From IMG/VR virus record IMGVR_UViG_2698536480_000001, positions 1 through 32,093 of that record: a stretch of 32,093 nucleotides of DNA, one strand, 5' to 3'. The notes under the pieces were generated by a model. That model saw only the letters and a list, made by a program, of their open reading frames with translations. It had not been told where the DNA came from and made no database searches. Source of the stretch: a virus (lineage: Duplodnaviria; Heunggongvirae; Uroviricota; Caudoviricetes). Positions 2,130 to 5,936 of the stretch are shown in pieces. Made by a program: the position numbers and the translations under genes. Position 1 is the stretch's first letter; each line of letters starts with the position of its first letter.

Positions 2130-2399
2130 ACGGATAGTCCTGGTATTGTTCCATCACATCCTGCGGATGCTCTTCGAACTCTTCAAATTCTTCTTCCATA
2201 TATCACCTCAAATAAGTTGTTTGCTGCGAAAGTAAATACGCTTAAGTTACCTGTTATTTATCCCACCAAGTTCCGTATCTATCTATCCAGTTACACCAAT
2301 CATCGACACTCCATTTTGTTGTGTCGCATTTTGGCAACTGGCATGAATATCTACCTTCTTTGTAAAGTCGGCGTTTGACTTTCTTGAGCATGGCTCACC

Positions 2400-2705
2400 T
2401 CAATCGTAATAAGCTGGAATTGATTTTCCGCGTTGCTTCTGGCGGCCTGAACAAGTCACACCCATTTCACTGCGTGGCTTGCGGTAGTAAATACGGTTCT
2501 GTTTACGCTCGACTTCTTCTGCCTTCTTGCAGCGAAGGCTTCCGAGTGATGCTGCTTTATCTGCTCTGACGCAACCAGAGAGCTTTAGCGCAATTTTTCG
2601 CGCCAGTCGCTGCTCTTGCATTGCCTGTTCACGTTGAGCCTGTCTGCGTGCTCTGCGGCGATTTCTGGCGTTATCGTCAGCCAGTTATGTAATGACTACT
2701 GTCAT
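2400..2705 (-). pseudogene. N: antitermination protein N (phi21/P22-type), interrupted by an in-frame TAA at codon 7
   Basis: C-terminal part (SGCVRADKAASLGSLRCKKAEEVERKQNRIYY...GVTCSGRQK) resembles phi21 N. Strong RBS GGAGG plus ATG at 2705 gives MTVVIT then TAA (plus 2685-2687), then an in-frame arginine-rich motif NARNRRRARRQAQREQA with no ATG/GTG/TTG before it. Confidence 0.6.
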
Positions 2706-2812
2706 GTTGACCTCCGATGATTGACTTTGGCGGTGACGCGCCGGGTGCTTATCTTCCGGTTGCCGTCGTGCAGCTGCACTTCACGTCACCCCAAAGCCAA
2801 CTACTCTTTGGT

Positions 2813-2864
2813 TCCCGCATTTCGGCGGGACAATCCCATCAATGTTAAAGAGCCTGCCAATCTG
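2813..2864 (-). promoter_or_regulatory. nutL (boxA plus boxB hairpin)
   Basis: On the - strand GCTCTTTAACA (boxA, plus 2853-2864) followed by hairpin UCCCGC-CGAAAU-GCGGGA (plus 2813-2830); the same boxA and boxB recur downstream of cro. Confidence 0.55.
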
Positions 2865-2899
2865 TTCCGTTTGGCTTCCAGCGTCATGCTGATGGCTAA

Positions 2900-2986
2900 A
2901 GAATACTGTAGGTATTTTATTGTGTAAATACCCAAGGTATTTATTTTTGATGAAATAATGATAAGCAAATGAATACAAAGGATATT
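2900..2986 (-). promoter_or_regulatory. OL operators and pL promoter
   Basis: Three 15-bp sites of the form AATAC-N5-GTATT/ATATT at 2902-2916, 2927-2941 and 2972-2986; on the - strand -35 TTTACA (plus 2923-2928), 17-bp spacer, -10 TATTCT (plus 2900-2905). Confidence 0.5.
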
Positions 2987-3072
2987 TATTTTTTCGGTGT
3001 CTGCTTGTTCAGTGCTTTTTATGCGGGATATGTGAAGTGGATCCCGATAGCTATTGCTGCCGGGATTATAGG

Positions 3073-3441
3073 TTAGTCAGCGAAGGTTAAGACGAGAATT
3101 ACCTTAATGATGTCTGCTACAACAGACACGGCCATAGATAAACCAAAGACGATCCAAGCCACAGTGATGTCTTCACTACCATCGTATAGAGTTCCGTAAT
3201 CACTGGTGTAAGGCGTAAATGTCGCGCCTTGATACAATAGGTATAAGCTTGATCCATAGAGGATAAATGCAGATATCCCTTGTATTGCTATGATCACCAG
3301 AATCATGAAACGAGCTGATCTATGCGCCCAAGCCTGGCTTATTTTTTCTGATAGAGATTTCGCAATAAAAGCATGCGCTAAGCCGTAAATTGTCGAGATT
3401 GCCAACATCCCAAAAAAGCTTGCTATAGCGGTTCCAACCAT
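3073..3441 (-). CDS. small polytopic membrane protein co-transcribed with cI (3-4 predicted TM helices)
   Basis: ORF immediately downstream of cI; ATG at 3441 with RBS AAGGGG 5 nt upstream (alternative TTG at 3462 overlaps the cI stop); hydrophobic segments throughout. Confidence 0.7.
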   Translation of the reverse strand: MVGTAIASFFGMLAISTIYGLAHAFIAKSLSEKISQAWAHRSARFMILVIIAIQGISAFILYGSSLYLLYQGATFTPYTSDYGTLYDGSEDITVAWIVFGLSMAVSVVADIIKVILVLTFAD

Positions 3442-3458
3442 AATCGCCCCTTGCGTGA

Positions 3459-4175
3459 TCAAACCAGCCTTAGTTTTGTCTCAATTGCAACGCCTATAAT
3501 CTTGCAGTTTCCATTGATTGGCACGAGAGGCCATGCAGGATTAAGTCCCTTGAGGTATTTATTTCCGCCGTCGATTATCAGCTTCTTGAATGTTGCTTCG
3601 TTAGAGTCAGAAAGTTTTGCTATGACCAAGCTGCCGTTGATCGCCTCCCTTCCGGTATCGAAAAGAACGAATGTTCCCTCTGGAATGCTTAACCCAACCG
3701 GTGCCGTCATTGAATCACCTTCCACTTTAAGCCAGAACGCATTACCTTGAATATGCGCGTCAGACTCAAGCCAAACATCTATGTCTTTAATGGTGTATGG
3801 TTCGCATGCTTCACACCACGAGCCAGCCTGGATACTGCTTAACACCGGATACCTCTTTCCTGCTCTGTATTCCCCTGCATACCTTACGTTGGCATCGCTC
3901 TTAAGGCTTTCTGCCTGTTCTGCAACCTTGGCAGCAATTGACTGGCTAAAATCAGCAATTGAGACTTGCAACAGCCGTGCAAAACCAGATGCAACCTCAA
4001 CGTTTAGCGCGTTTCTGCCATTAAGATAATGCCCTACCGCTCCTTGGGTGATACCCAGTTCATCAGCGATTGAGTATTGGGTTATTCCCAATTCTTTCTT
4101 TTTTGACTCATACAAAGCCTTAAGCCGCTTAGCGTCTTCGAGCTGTTCTGTCGTCAGTGATTTTTTATTTTCCAT
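3459..4175 (-). CDS. cI: CI-type prophage repressor (HTH plus LexA-like S24 peptidase domain)
   Basis: 238 aa; N-terminal HTH (QYSIADELGITQGAVGHYLNG), C-terminal autocleavage domain with GDSM serine motif and a conserved lysine further downstream; divergent from cro across an operator region. Confidence 0.92.
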   Translation of the reverse strand: MENKKSLTTEQLEDAKRLKALYESKKKELGITQYSIADELGITQGAVGHYLNGRNALNVEVASGFARLLQVSIADFSQSIAAKVAEQAESLKSDANVRYAGEYRAGKRYPVLSSIQAGSWCEACEPYTIKDIDVWLESDAHIQGNAFWLKVEGDSMTAPVGLSIPEGTFVLFDTGREAINGSLVIAKLSDSNEATFKKLIIDGGNKYLKGLNPAWPLVPINGNCKIIGVAIETKLRLV

Positions 4176-4204
4176 AGCTTAATTCTAATAGCTAAGGTAC
4201 TTAA

Positions 4205-4262
4205 ACTAAAAATACCCTGAGTATTGATTGCTTTGAATACCTGTAGTATTCTTTGTTCATGG
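4205..4262 (+). promoter_or_regulatory. OR operators with PR promoter
   Basis: Operator sites AATACCCTGAGTATT (4211-4225) and AATACCTGTAGTATT (4236-4250) matching the OL sites; PR -35 TTGATT (4224-4229), 17-bp spacer, -10 TATTCT (4247-4252). Confidence 0.5.
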
Positions 4263-4281
4263 TTAATAACGGAGAGTGCAT

Positions 4282-4476
4282 ATGATTCGAATGACACTTG
4301 CCGATTACGCCAAAATCCATGGACAGGCTAAAGCAGCCAGTGACTTTGGTGTAATCCAGTGCGCTATCAGCAAGGCCATTCTGGCAGGTCGTAACATTAT
4401 GGTTACGGTAAAGCCTGATGGCAGTGTGATTGGAGAGGAAGTTCGTCCTTTCCCAAGCAACAAGAAAAACAAATAG
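4282..4476 (+). CDS. cro: Cro repressor (lambda Cro-like)
   Basis: [62 protein letters not shown] closely parallels lambda Cro ([59 protein letters not shown]); SD GGAGAG 5 nt before the ATG at 4282. Confidence 0.88.
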
Positions 4477-4482
4477 TAACAC

Positions 4483-4526
4483 CGCTCTTTAACAGTCATG
4501 GTCCTCATTCCCGCCGAAATGCGGGA
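4483..4526 (+). promoter_or_regulatory. nutR (boxA CGCTCTTTAACA plus boxB hairpin)
   Basis: CGCTCTTTAACA at 4483-4494 and hairpin TCCCGC-CGAAAT-GCGGGA at 4509-4526, identical to the nutL boxB; followed by inverted repeat GCGCAT-N6-ATGCGC (tR1 region). Confidence 0.6.
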
Positions 4527-4584
4527 ATACAACGCGCATAAGTTGATGCGCATAACTTCTTATTAGTTAAGGAAATACTTACAT

Positions 4585-4863
4585 ATGCAACTTACAAGTA
4601 CTCGCAAGAAAGCGAATGCAATTACAAGCAACATCCTGAATCGAATTGCTGTACGTGGTCAGCGAAAGGTTGCCGACGCGTTAGGGATTAATGAATCGCA
4701 AATTTCGCGATGGAAAGACAGCTTCATCCCCAAAATGGGAATGCTTCTTGCTGTTCTTGAATGGGGTGTTGAAGACGAGGAGTTGGCGGAACTGGCTAAG
4801 AAAGTAGCCAGAATGCTGACAAAAGAAAAAGCCCCGAAGAACGGCGAATTCTTCGAGGCCTGA
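4585..4863 (+). CDS. cII: CII transcriptional activator
   Basis: 92 aa; segment QISRWKDSFIPKMGMLLAVLEWGVED matches lambda CII (QISRWKRDWIPKFSMLLAVLEWGV). Confidence 0.85.
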   Translation: MQLTSTRKKANAITSNILNRIAVRGQRKVADALGINESQISRWKDSFIPKMGMLLAVLEWGVEDEELAELAKKVARMLTKEKAPKNGEFFEA

Positions 4864-4897: not shown

Positions 4898-5059
4898 ATG
4901 ACAAAACGTCGTAAGAAATACCAGGAAAAAGAAGAGATTCGACACCCTGATTCACCTGAGGGATTAGTGGTAGCCGCAGCAAATAACAGGGCGTTCGCAG
5001 AGCGCCTTGTTGGTGTTTACAGACTAGCCAAAGCAGGAGTGAAGCATGGGCGTCGTTAA
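4898..5059 (+). CDS. hypothetical small basic protein (53 aa)
   Basis: ATG at 4898 preceded by AGGAG; fills the cII-to-O gap; below the ORF-track size cut-off, so weakly supported. Confidence 0.3.
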   Translation: MTKRRKKYQEKEEIRHPDSPEGLVVAAANNRAFAERLVGVYRLAKAGVKHGRR

Positions 5060-5108
5060 GTTAGCTGATTACAGGCATAACCCTGTACAACATCAGGAGG
5101 CATCCAGT

Positions 5109-5936
5109 ATGGGGTATGTCTCTATACACCGCCAGTTTATGGACAGCAGGCTCTATAAGGACTCTCAGGCAGTACATCTTTGGCTTCACTTAATCCTCAA
5201 GGCTAATCACGAATCTACTGTCGTCAATACGGATATCGGGCCGATAACTGTTGATCGCGGTCAGATGATAACTGGACGCCCGTCGCTGGTCAGAGAAACA
5301 TTCATCCCCGACAACAAAGTTCGGAGCTTATTACGGACTTTTGAGTCGAAAGGGATGCTTAATATTTGCTCGATGGGGAAGAAATTTAGCCTGTTTACAA
5401 TCGTTAAATATGACGATTTTCAGGCAAAAAATTGTCCAACGGTTGTCCAACGGTTGTCCAACGCAAACACAAGTAATGGCGCGGCTCTCAGCGGAGATTG
5501 TCCAACGGTTGTCCAACGGTTGTCCATAAACAATAATATAAATAATATCTCTAATACTGACGTATTAGAGAGTGCCACAGCAGACAAAAAGTCTGACAAG
5601 AAAAAACCTCCCGTCAGCTGTCAGGATGTTGTCGATGCTTACCACGAAATCCTTCCTGAAGCGCCAAGAATCCGCGCACTGAATGACAAGCGTAAAAACC
5701 AGATCCGAACGTTCTGGCGCAAAGCCGGAGTGATAACCCGCCAGCTTGACGGGCATGGGTTCACGATGCAGGACTGGAGAAATTATTTGAGCTACGTAGG
5801 CGAAAATTGCCGATGGATGTTCGAAGAGCGTCCAAACCATCAACGCGGAACCGTCTGGCACAAAAAGGGATTTGATTTCCTGCTTAACGACAATACCTAC
5901 CTGAAAGTTCGTGAGGGTGAACACGATGACCGATAA
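5109..5936 (+). CDS. replication initiator protein (O-type), with origin iterons inside the coding sequence
   Basis: ATG at 5109 with SD AGGAGG 8 nt upstream (track start 5046 is less likely); gene contains the iteron array and ends overlapping the helicase gene, as in lambda O and P22 gene 18. Confidence 0.8.
   Translation: MGYVSIHRQFMDSRLYKDSQAVHLWLHLILKANHESTVVNTDIGPITVDRGQMITGRPSLVRETFIPDNKVRSLLRTFESKGMLNICSMGKKFSLFTIVKYDDFQAKNCPTVVQRLSNANTSNGAALSGDCPTVVQRLSINNNINNISNTDVLESATADKKSDKKKPPVSCQDVVDAYHEILPEAPRIRALNDKRKNQIRTFWRKAGVITRQLDGHGFTMQDWRNYLSYVGENCRWMFEERPNHQRGTVWHKKGFDFLLNDNTYLKVREGEHDDR
5432..5531. repeat. origin of replication: six tandem 11-bp iterons (TTGTCCAACGG) in two triplets plus an AT-rich tract
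   Basis: TTGTCCAACGG repeated at 5432, 5443, 5454 and 5499, 5510, 5521 (last copies degenerate), followed by AT-rich ATAAACAATAATATAAATAATATCT. Confidence 0.7.

What the first reader, a model, noticed from the sequence alone, without database searches (positions are those of the whole stretch)
3073..3462. Membrane protein co-transcribed with the cI repressor (rexB-like position, no rexA partner)
A 122-aa polytopic membrane protein starts 17 nt after the cI stop codon with a good RBS, or overlaps it if the TTG start is used. Genes in this position are made in the lysogen from PRM (lambda rexA/rexB, for example) and typically protect the lysogen from other phages. This ORF is small, has no RexA-like partner, and I do not recognise it. 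It is a candidate lysogeny-expressed exclusion or abortive-infection membrane effector.
Basis: partly seen in the sequence, partly recalled or inferred. Interest (0 to 1): 0.65.

Follow-up and report, generated by a model that had tools for sequence, protein, structure and literature searches.

The report
Uncharacterised membrane gene hkaS behind cI
The ORF is real: it is hkaS, a three-pass inner-membrane protein of unknown function that always sits directly behind the phage HK620-type cI repressor, which makes it a reasonable but untested candidate for a prophage gene that keeps other phages out.

Summary
A 122-aa ORF lies on the minus strand at 3073-3441. It has a Shine-Dalgarno site and an ATG 17 nt after the stop of an HTH/S24 cI repressor (3459-4175). 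The TTG start is not conserved in relatives.

The gene is not new. The region is about 99% identical to the phage HK620 immunity region, where the ORF has been annotated as hkaS ("unknown") since 2001. It belongs to PHROG 6534, unknown function.

- **Distribution:** it occurs in 146 of 5426 complete E. coli genomes and in Salmonella, Enterobacter and Hafnia prophages.
- **Linkage:** it always sits directly behind the same cI type, inside the OL-OR immunity cassette.
- **Selection:** purifying but weak (piN/piS 0.26, against 0.014 for cI).
- **Structure:** AlphaFold gives a confident three-helix membrane protein, N-terminus out and C-terminus in. The cytoplasmic face is the most conserved part, and TM3 carries an invariant D110/K113 pair.
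- **Homology:** none to RexB, SieB, Pfam, NCBIfam, PADLOC or PDB entries. Fold matches are generic helix bundles.

Expression from the cI promoter in lysogens follows from the architecture and from precedent (lambda rexAB, BTP1 bstA). An exclusion or abortive-infection role is plausible and untested, and I found no paper on its function. It is an ordinary but worthwhile wet-lab candidate.

The parts
3073..3441 (-). hkaS CDS (122 aa, ATG start). Three-pass inner-membrane protein: TM1 about 3-27, cytoplasmic loop 28-45, TM2 about 45-70, periplasmic loop 71-92, TM3 about 93-120.
   Evidence: phrog_6534, E 2.9e-79, profile 1-122 aligned to residues 8-129 of the TTG form; HK620 hkaS
3447..3452 (-). 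Shine-Dalgarno AAGGGG, 5 nt before the hkaS ATG
   Evidence: read from the sequence; equivalent AAGGA sites in homologues
3460..3462 (-). Alternative TTG start overlapping the cI stop; probably not used
   Evidence: not conserved; the Salmonella homologue has an in-frame stop before its ATG; the PHROG profile starts at the ATG
3459..4175 (-). cI repressor (238 aa, HTH_3 plus Peptidase_S24), first gene of the operon
4182..4187 (-). Candidate PRM -10 (TAGAAT), 6 nt before the cI ATG. This would give a leaderless cI mRNA as in lambda. Inference only.
   Evidence: read from the sequence; overlaps OR3; by analogy with lambda PRM (my knowledge); the consensus scan did not call it
4186..4251 (.). OR3 (4186-4202), OR2 (4210-4226), OR1 (4235-4251)
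   Evidence: the operator motif AAATACCNNNGGTATTT has exactly six hits in 32 kb, and 0 of 100 shuffles reach six; HK620 annotation
2901..2987 (.). OL1 (2901-2917), OL2 (2926-2942), OL3 (2971-2987), and pL (-35 TTTACA, -10 TATTCT, 2928..2900, minus strand) pointing away from hkaS
3041..3066 (-). GC-rich hairpin (AUCCCGGCAGCAAUAGCUAUCGGGAU) 7 nt after the hkaS stop, with no U tract. Possible 3' end or stabiliser of the immunity transcript.
   Evidence: some homologues have other GC-rich inverted repeats in about the same place, as I read them in the alignment (not folded); function not shown

Best explanation
hkaS is an accessory (moron-type) gene carried inside the HK620-type immunity cassette: OL - hkaS - cI - OR - cro.

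**Expression (inferred from architecture).** Leftward transcripts that read through cI carry on into hkaS. These would come from PRM in the lysogen and from PRE during establishment. hkaS is then translated from its own SD. Expression should stop once Cro shuts PRM off in lytic growth.

**Product (shown by prediction).** A 122-aa protein that spans the inner membrane three times, N-terminus in the periplasm and C-terminus in the cytoplasm. It has no soluble domain.

**Partners (inferred).** Across its very mosaic carriers, the only phage genes always found next to it are cI and cro, plus a CII-family gene wherever the contig extends that far. It must therefore act alone or on host components.

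**Function (inferred, not shown).** Most likely it is a stand-alone barrier to superinfecting heteroimmune phages at the cytoplasmic membrane. It would interfere with genome entry, or with a host inner-membrane factor that entry needs. This is how the solo small membrane proteins P22 SieA, HK97 gp15 and T4 Imm work.
For: **Identity and linkage**
- About 99% DNA identity to the HK620 immunity region, where the ORF is annotated hkaS.
- All 16 phage records that carry this cI at 99% identity or more carry hkaS, and no other records do.
- In 79 of 80 IMG/VR loci, cI (at least 99.6% identical) ends 17-19 nt upstream. The 80th locus starts at the gene itself.
- The same arrangement holds in Salmonella, Hafnia-type and metagenome homologues down to 52% identity. 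Their N, O/P and recombination modules differ.

**Expression logic**
- The 17-nt gap contains only an SD.
- No promoter-like site lies inside cI on that strand, and pL points away.
- Precedent: the cI-N interval is a moron and defence hotspot, and cI-bstA is one operon by RNA-seq (PMC7067206, PMC8585504).

**Real and functional gene**
- dN/dS about 0.13 and piN/piS 0.26.
- Present in 146 of 5426 complete E. coli genomes.
- The exact protein is on at least 1000 public contigs.

**Membrane protein without a soluble domain**
- Hydropathy and charge distribution.
- AF2 pLDDT 92: three long helices, a short amphipathic helix and a periplasmic hairpin.

**Variable cargo in the slot**
- rexAB in lambda, hex in 434, two unrelated genes in Enterobacter phage BHUENT3, and nothing in Serratia phage OS31.

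**Dispensable for lytic growth**
- Phage HF4s carries a frameshifted copy.
Against: - There is no experimental datum on hkaS. No paper in the library mentions its function.
- There is no sequence, profile or specific fold similarity to any characterised exclusion or defence protein.
- The most conserved parts face the cytoplasm: loop 28-45 and the C-terminal ILVLTFAD with D110/K113. The periplasmic loop is the least conserved. That does not particularly point to recognition of incoming phage proteins in the periplasm.
- Most amino-acid polymorphisms are conservative changes inside the helices. This looks like weak constraint rather than an arms race.
- The same slot can hold a gene whose reported role is not exclusion (434 hex).
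Confidence: 0.4

Rival explanations
1. Abortive-infection effector. HkaS would be a dormant pore or depolarising protein that is triggered by infection and kills or arrests the cell. That is RexB-like in outcome but needs no RexA sensor. It could also be holin-like, since it has the three-TM, N-out/C-in topology of class I holins.
For: - It occupies the rexB position in the cI operon.
- Predicted topology is three TM helices, N-terminus out and C-terminus in.
- Invariant polar residues sit inside the bilayer (Q54, S106, D110, K113), as expected for an oligomeric channel or a gated helix bundle.
Against: - No RexB homology (probability 0.7%).
- No sensor partner. Known membrane abortive-infection effectors of this kind work with a cytoplasmic sensor (RexA; Sbash gp30 with gp31, as I recall it).
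- No charged C-terminal tail and no holin family hit.
- The fold matches are non-specific.
Confidence: 0.15
2. Not a defence gene. HkaS would tune the prophage or the host. It could stabilise lysogeny or alter induction, as reported for 434 Hex. It could act on a membrane protease or chaperone such as FtsH. Or it could confer some other lysogenic-conversion trait on the envelope.
For: - The same slot in phage 434 holds hex, annotated as protecting the repressor from RecA-dependent proteolysis (GenBank note citing PMID 23303392).
- The conserved surface of HkaS is cytoplasmic. It includes a basic amphipathic helix lying on the membrane, KISQAWAHRxARF.
- The strict linkage to one cI type would suit a function tied to that repressor or its switch.
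Against: - Hex is unrelated: it is a secreted protein with a signal peptide.
- Linkage to cI is also expected for any gene trapped between OL and OR, as rexAB is.
- No similarity to known FtsH or protease modulators was found in any search.
Confidence: 0.2
3. Functionless passenger. This would be an ORF kept only because it lies inside the immunity cassette, and slowly decaying.
For: - Weak constraint: piN/piS is 0.26 against 0.014 for cI, and dN is 4-6 times that of cI.
- Frameshifted copies exist in HF4s and in some database ORF calls.
- The family is tiny, with two 50%-identity representatives among 1.84 billion.
Against: - The ORF keeps full length, start, SD, topology and 43 invariant residues (in the 7-sequence alignment A2) down to 52% identity, where synonymous sites are saturated.
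- None of the 80 IMG/VR copies has a stop codon, although those were the 80 best matches.
- At least one frameshifted copy lies in an assembly where cI is frameshifted too, which suggests sequencing error.
Confidence: 0.1

Closest known systems
Lambda RexB (with RexA)
   Same: It lies between cI and OL in the immunity operon and is made in the lysogen. It is a small polytopic inner-membrane protein.
   Different: No sequence or profile similarity (hhalign probability 0.7%). HkaS has three predicted TM helices in 122 aa; RexB has four in 144 aa (my knowledge). There is no RexA-like gene: only 85 nt separate hkaS from OL3.
Solo small inner-membrane superinfection-exclusion proteins: P22 SieA (PMC10883804), HK97 gp15, T4 Imm, lactococcal Sie2009 (the last three from my knowledge)
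   Same: Prophage- or phage-encoded, small, membrane-embedded, with no partner and no enzymatic domain. This is the functional class I think HkaS most likely belongs to.
   Different: No homology: the PHROG and Pfam scans hit only phrog_6534. They sit at other genomic positions (sieA in the immI/ant moron, gp15 in the tail region). A block to DNA entry has not been tested for HkaS.
BstA of Salmonella prophage BTP1
   Same: Same slot directly downstream of cI. For BstA, transcription from the cI promoter as one operon was shown by RNA-seq (PMC7067206, PMC8585504).
   Different: As I recall it, BstA is a roughly 300-aa soluble protein. The paper shows it acts at phage replication sites and carries an aba self-immunity element. 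HkaS is a 122-aa membrane protein, and I identified no such element.
Phage 434 Hex
   Same: Same slot. Its start overlaps the cI stop. The 434 cI is 52% identical to this cI.
   Different: Hex has a signal peptide and is a secreted, non-TM protein. It is unrelated in sequence. Its annotated role is repressor protection, not exclusion.
Class I holins (lambda S105)
   Same: Predicted three TM helices, N-out/C-in, about 100-120 aa.
   Different: No holin family hit. No charged cytoplasmic C-terminal tail. It is not in the lysis cassette and would be expressed in the lysogen.

Membership tests
HkaS / PHROG 6534 (function unknown) | Full-length sequence match to the family profile | tested here: met
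   E 2.9e-79, profile positions 1-122 of 122; 97.5-100% identical to the copies in 15 of the 16 phage records, including HK620, HK630, HK140 and mEpX2, and 91% to the frameshifted HF4s copy
HkaS / PHROG 6534 (function unknown) | Position directly downstream of the HK620-type cI | tested here: met
RexB (lambda Rex system) | Sequence or profile similarity to RexB | tested here: not met
   hhalign probability 0.7%; no PHROG, Pfam or PADLOC hit
RexB (lambda Rex system) | Adjacent RexA sensor gene | tested here: not met
   No ORF between cI and hkaS (17 nt) or between hkaS and OL3 (85 nt)
RexB (lambda Rex system) | Located in the cI (PRM) operon between cI and OL | tested here: met
SieB | Sequence or profile similarity | tested here: not met
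   hhalign probability 2% against the SieB of lambda imm434; 0.1% against HK620 hkaP, the putative Sie protein
Known anti-phage defence proteins (PADLOC-DB 2.0) | Match to any model | tested here: not met
   0 families at E up to 10
Class I holin | Three TM helices, N-out/C-in | tested here: met
   Prediction only: hydropathy, positive-inside rule and AF2
Class I holin | Charged cytoplasmic C-terminal tail; gene in the lysis cassette; holin family match | tested here: not met
   The protein ends at ...LVLTFAD right after TM3. The gene is in the immunity operon. No Pfam or PHROG holin hit.
Lysogen-expressed cI-operon accessory gene (functional class) | Transcribed with cI in the lysogen | not testable with these tools
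   The architecture strongly implies it, with precedent in BTP1 and lambda. It needs RNA-seq, Northern or 5'/3' RACE.
Superinfection exclusion / abortive infection (functional class) | Reduces productive infection by other phages | not testable with these tools
   No experimental report found

The most novel reading that the evidence does not exclude
HkaS founds a new family of single-gene, membrane-only anti-phage proteins. A 122-aa three-helix protein made from the repressor promoter would, without any sensor partner, either block genome entry or collapse the membrane on infection. It would use the conserved intramembrane Q54/D110/K113 cluster and the cytoplasmic amphipathic helix. It would protect the roughly 3% of E. 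coli that carry this immunity type.
Probability: 0.4. Interest if true: 0.55.

Novelty: new member of a known kind. Interest (0 to 1): 0.35.

Why it matters
The cI-to-N interval of lambdoid prophages is a recognised slot for lysogen-expressed defence genes such as rexAB and bstA. HkaS fills that slot in the model phage HK620 and in about 2.7% of complete E. coli genomes, as well as in Salmonella, Enterobacter and Hafnia prophages. Every database still calls it "hypothetical".

It is small, acts without a phage partner, and sits in genetically tractable phages (HK620, mEpX2, HK630). It is therefore a cheap and clean test case for how a minimal membrane protein can serve a prophage. A positive result would add a new single-gene defence family. 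A negative one would be a reminder that position next to cI does not equal defence.

Tried and rejected
**Remote homology.** All searches were negative or below threshold.
- Pfam gave only TssN, E 0.043, far below the cutoff.
- NCBIfam and PADLOC gave nothing.
- Word-indexed search of 5.8 billion proteins found 12 clusters, all the same family.
- Full HMM search of 1.84 billion representatives found only 2.
- PDB sequence profile search found 0.

**Fold searches** were uninformative.
- BFVD had no hit with E of 0.001 or better.
- The afdb50 library was unavailable.

**Direct profile comparisons** with RexB, SieB and HK620 hkaP gave no relation. 434 Hex is unrelated and secreted.

**Other scans**
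- Rfam scan of 2300-4600: nothing real.
- Species-representative genomes: no copy found. That fits a sporadic prophage gene, though the pattern-based scan may also miss copies.
- Classical intrinsic terminator after hkaS: none called. There is only a hairpin without a U tract. The AT-rich "tIMM" of the HK620 record is not convincing.

**Ideas dropped**
- Phase variation at the A6-A8 run (codons 32-34). Frameshifted copies exist (HF4s). One such assembly also has cI frameshifted, so sequencing error is as likely.
- An overlapping RNA or DNA element at the nucleotide-invariant last 20 nt of hkaS. It rests on only three invariant synonymous codons in four sequences, which is too little to claim.

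**Literature.** The Clark et al. 2001 HK620 paper is not held. No paper mentions both hkaS and HK620.

Full report
**1. The observation**

The ORF exists as described, but on the minus strand. It runs 3073..3462 from a TTG (129 aa) or 3073..3441 from an ATG (122 aa).

The upstream gene (3459..4175, minus) is a classical cI repressor with HTH_3 and Peptidase_S24 domains. Its TGA stop is at 3461..3459. Then come 17 nt containing AAGGGG (3452..3447), followed by the ATG at 3441..3439. The TTG overlaps the cI stop as TTGA.

The ATG is the real start, for three reasons:
- The 122-position PHROG profile aligns to residues 8-129 of the long form.
- All diverged homologues begin at the equivalent ATG with their own SD.
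- In the Salmonella homologue a TAA lies in frame directly before the ATG.

**2. What it is**

The 2.1 kb around the ORF is about 99% identical to the immunity region of coliphage HK620 (AF335538). There the ORF is annotated as hkaS, product "unknown". It is flanked by cI on one side and by tIMM, OL3-OL1/pL, nutL and N on the other.

The same cassette is found in several virion types:
- P22-like podoviruses: HK620, HF4s, HZ41, vB_EcoP-611R6.
- Lambda-like siphoviruses: HK630, HK140, mEpX2.
- Stx2c phages and phi296/phi367.

The protein is PHROG 6534, function unknown. It has no Pfam, NCBIfam or PADLOC match. Every public source calls it a hypothetical protein, and the exact sequence is on at least 1000 contigs. 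It is in 146 of 5426 complete E. coli genomes, always on the chromosome.

The window itself is a P22-like (Lederbergvirus-type) genome, closest to HZ41 and IME10.

**3. A very narrow family, locked to one immunity type**

Searching 5.8 billion proteins gave 12 clusters. A full HMM search of 1.84 billion representatives gave two. Members come from E. coli, Salmonella, Enterobacter, Hafnia and metagenomes.

In every context I could read, the gene lies 17-20 nt behind a cI of the same type, with cro on the other side (cI at least 85% identical; the one apparent exception, L007, is a truncated ORF call). A CII-family gene follows wherever the contig extends that far. The N, replication and recombination modules differ between carriers.
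- All 16 phage records with this cI carry hkaS, and no others do.
- In 79 of 80 IMG/VR loci, cI ends 17-19 nt upstream. The 80th locus is cut at the gene.

The operator motif AAATACCNNNGGTATTT occurs exactly six times in the 32-kb window. Three copies lie left of hkaS (OL1-3) and three lie right of cI (OR3-1), and 0 of 100 shuffles reach six. hkaS is therefore physically inside the immunity cassette, as rexAB is in lambda. That alone explains the strict linkage.

More distant cI relatives carry other cargo in this slot:
- Serratia phage OS31: nothing.
- Enterobacter phage BHUENT3: a CxxC protein plus a coiled-coil/TM protein.
- Phage 434: hex.
- Lambda: rexA and rexB.

This matches the published view that the cI-N interval is a mosaic hotspot for accessory genes (PMC8585504, PMC7067206).

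**4. Is it a real, selected gene?**

Yes. Constraint is weak but real.
- Against the Hafnia-type homologue, dN/dS is 0.135, compared with 0.029 for cI. In deeper pairs synonymous sites are saturated and dN is 4-6 times that of cI.
- In 80 IMG/VR copies, synonymous diversity per site is the same in both genes (0.22-0.23).
- Segregating changes are 19 synonymous and 23 non-synonymous in hkaS, against 37 and 5 in cI. piN/piS is 0.26 against 0.014.
- Most replacements are conservative changes within helices.
- This sample is the best 80 matches, so disrupted copies are under-represented.

Frameshifted copies exist. HF4s has a 1-nt deletion in the A-run at codons 32-34, and some database ORF calls are frameshifted too. 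One such assembly also has a frameshifted cI, so I do not read this as phase variation.

**5. The protein**

Hydropathy shows three hydrophobic segments at about 3-27, 45-70 and 93-120. The loop at 28-45 carries K28, K33, H40, R41 and R44. The loop at 71-92 carries D81, D87, E90 and D91. By the positive-inside rule the N-terminus is periplasmic and the C-terminus cytoplasmic.

AlphaFold2, using seven sequences, gives mean pLDDT 92 and pTM 0.79. It predicts helices at 2-29, 31-38, 41-73 and 89-121, and a small hairpin at about 78-86.

Conservation is highest on the cytoplasmic side:
- Loop 1, KISQAWAHRxARF: 10 of 18 residues invariant.
- The C-terminal D110xxK113xILVLTFAD.

It is lowest in the periplasmic loop, where 4 of 22 residues are invariant. 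Q54, S106, D110 and K113 are invariant polar residues within the bilayer.

There is no soluble domain, so an enzymatic role is unlikely. The protein must work by oligomerising in the membrane or by binding other membrane components.

**6. Expression**

This is shown by architecture only.
- The 17-nt gap leaves no room for a terminator.
- The consensus scan finds no promoter-like site on the minus strand within cI.
- The only nearby leftward promoter, pL (2928..2900), lies downstream of hkaS and points away from it. pR points rightward.
- Any transcript that completes cI therefore enters hkaS, and little else can transcribe it.
- A TAGAAT sits 6 nt before the cI ATG and overlaps OR3. It would give a leaderless cI message as at lambda PRM. 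That is my reading by analogy and is not tested.
- A GC hairpin follows the hkaS stop (3041-3066), with no U tract. I also read other GC-rich inverted repeats in about that place in some homologues (not folded).
- In BTP1, RNA-seq showed that cI and the downstream bstA form one operon from a single start site (PMC7067206).

**7. Mechanism**

No computation here can show what HkaS does, and I found no experimental paper.

I commit to the following, at about 0.4. HkaS is a lysogen-expressed, stand-alone barrier against other phages at the inner membrane, most likely at the genome-entry step. The reasons are:
- The slot and operon.
- A protein that is only membrane.
- No partner gene conserved across mosaic carriers.
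- Precedent: solo small membrane proteins of prophages are typically entry blockers (P22 SieA in PMC10883804; HK97 gp15, T4 Imm and Sie2009 from my knowledge). Membrane abortive-infection effectors usually come with a sensor (RexA/RexB).

Rivals:
- **Sensor-less abortive-infection pore (0.15).** It is supported by the holin-like topology and the intramembrane polar cluster.
- **Non-defence role (0.2).** This would be control of lysogeny or induction, or envelope physiology. It is supported by the Hex precedent in the same slot and by the conserved cytoplasmic face.
- **Passenger with no function (0.1).** It is argued against by conservation of length, start, topology and 43 invariant residues at 52% identity.

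**8. Comparison with known systems**

HkaS works from the same place as RexB but is not a RexB:
- Profile similarity is absent.
- There is no RexA.
- The TM count differs.

It is also not SieB, not a PADLOC family and not a holin by family or context. Fold searches returned only generic helix bundles.

**9. Verdict**

- The gene has been known since 2001 as an ORF of unknown function.
- It is a good bench candidate rather than a surprise, so I score interest at 0.35.

Noticed in passing
window 2683-2685 (minus strand; N gene 2400..2705): The antiterminator N gene carries a nonsense codon at position 7 (TAT to TAA; window 2685 is A where HK620 and HF4s have T). The arginine-rich RNA-binding motif lies after the stop. 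No complete E. coli genome is 100% identical over 2560-2760 (best 99.5%), so this looks like a private N-null allele. The phage may be unable to grow lytically unless the stop is read through or suppressed.
   Followed up: partly
window about 2400-2514: N is mosaic. Identity to HK620 stops near 2514, and the C-terminal half of N matches phage 21/N7/HF4s-type N instead of HK620's P22-like C-terminus.
   Followed up: partly
window 2971-2987 versus 2948-2964: The HK620 GenBank record places OL3 at the equivalent of 2948-2964, which does not resemble the operator consensus. The motif search and the alignment of diverged homologues both point to 2971-2987 as OL3. That is 45 bp from OL2 rather than about 24 bp.
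   Followed up: partly
window 3073-3095 (3' end of hkaS): The last 20 nt or so of hkaS (GTTTTAACCTTCGCTGAC) are almost invariant at the nucleotide level in homologues whose synonymous sites are otherwise saturated. This could be a module boundary, a recombination joint or an RNA element. Four sequences are too few to tell.
   Followed up: no
window 3343-3348 (hkaS codons 32-34); L015 (HF4s): An A6 run (A8 in the Hafnia-type homologue) is the site of a 1-nt deletion that frameshifts hkaS in phage HF4s. It likely also explains the odd N-termini of database proteins P0006, P0007 and P0009. E. coli ET151 also has a shortened, presumably frameshifted hkaS copy (site not checked) together with a frameshifted cI, so some of these may be assembly errors.
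   Followed up: partly
L012 3170-3886 (Enterobacter phage BHUENT3): Downstream of a related cI (65% identical, with a different N-terminal DNA-binding domain) lie two unrelated genes. One is a 127-aa protein with two CxxC pairs. The other is a 109-aa coiled-coil protein with a C-terminal TM helix. Together they are another uncharacterised two-gene cargo in the rexAB slot.
   Followed up: no
L014 3109-3513 (lambda imm434 hex): The Hex protein in the same slot of phage 434 starts with a typical signal peptide (MIRIAALLSILLTTSANS). That is odd for a protein annotated as protecting the cytoplasmic repressor from RecA-mediated cleavage.
   Followed up: no
window about 5400-5530 (inside the O-like gene 5046..5936): The protein sequence repeats (CPTVVQRLSN twice). 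This coincides with the replication origin annotated in HK620 and is consistent with iterons inside the O gene, which would be expected and ordinary. The DNA repeats themselves were not checked.
   Followed up: no
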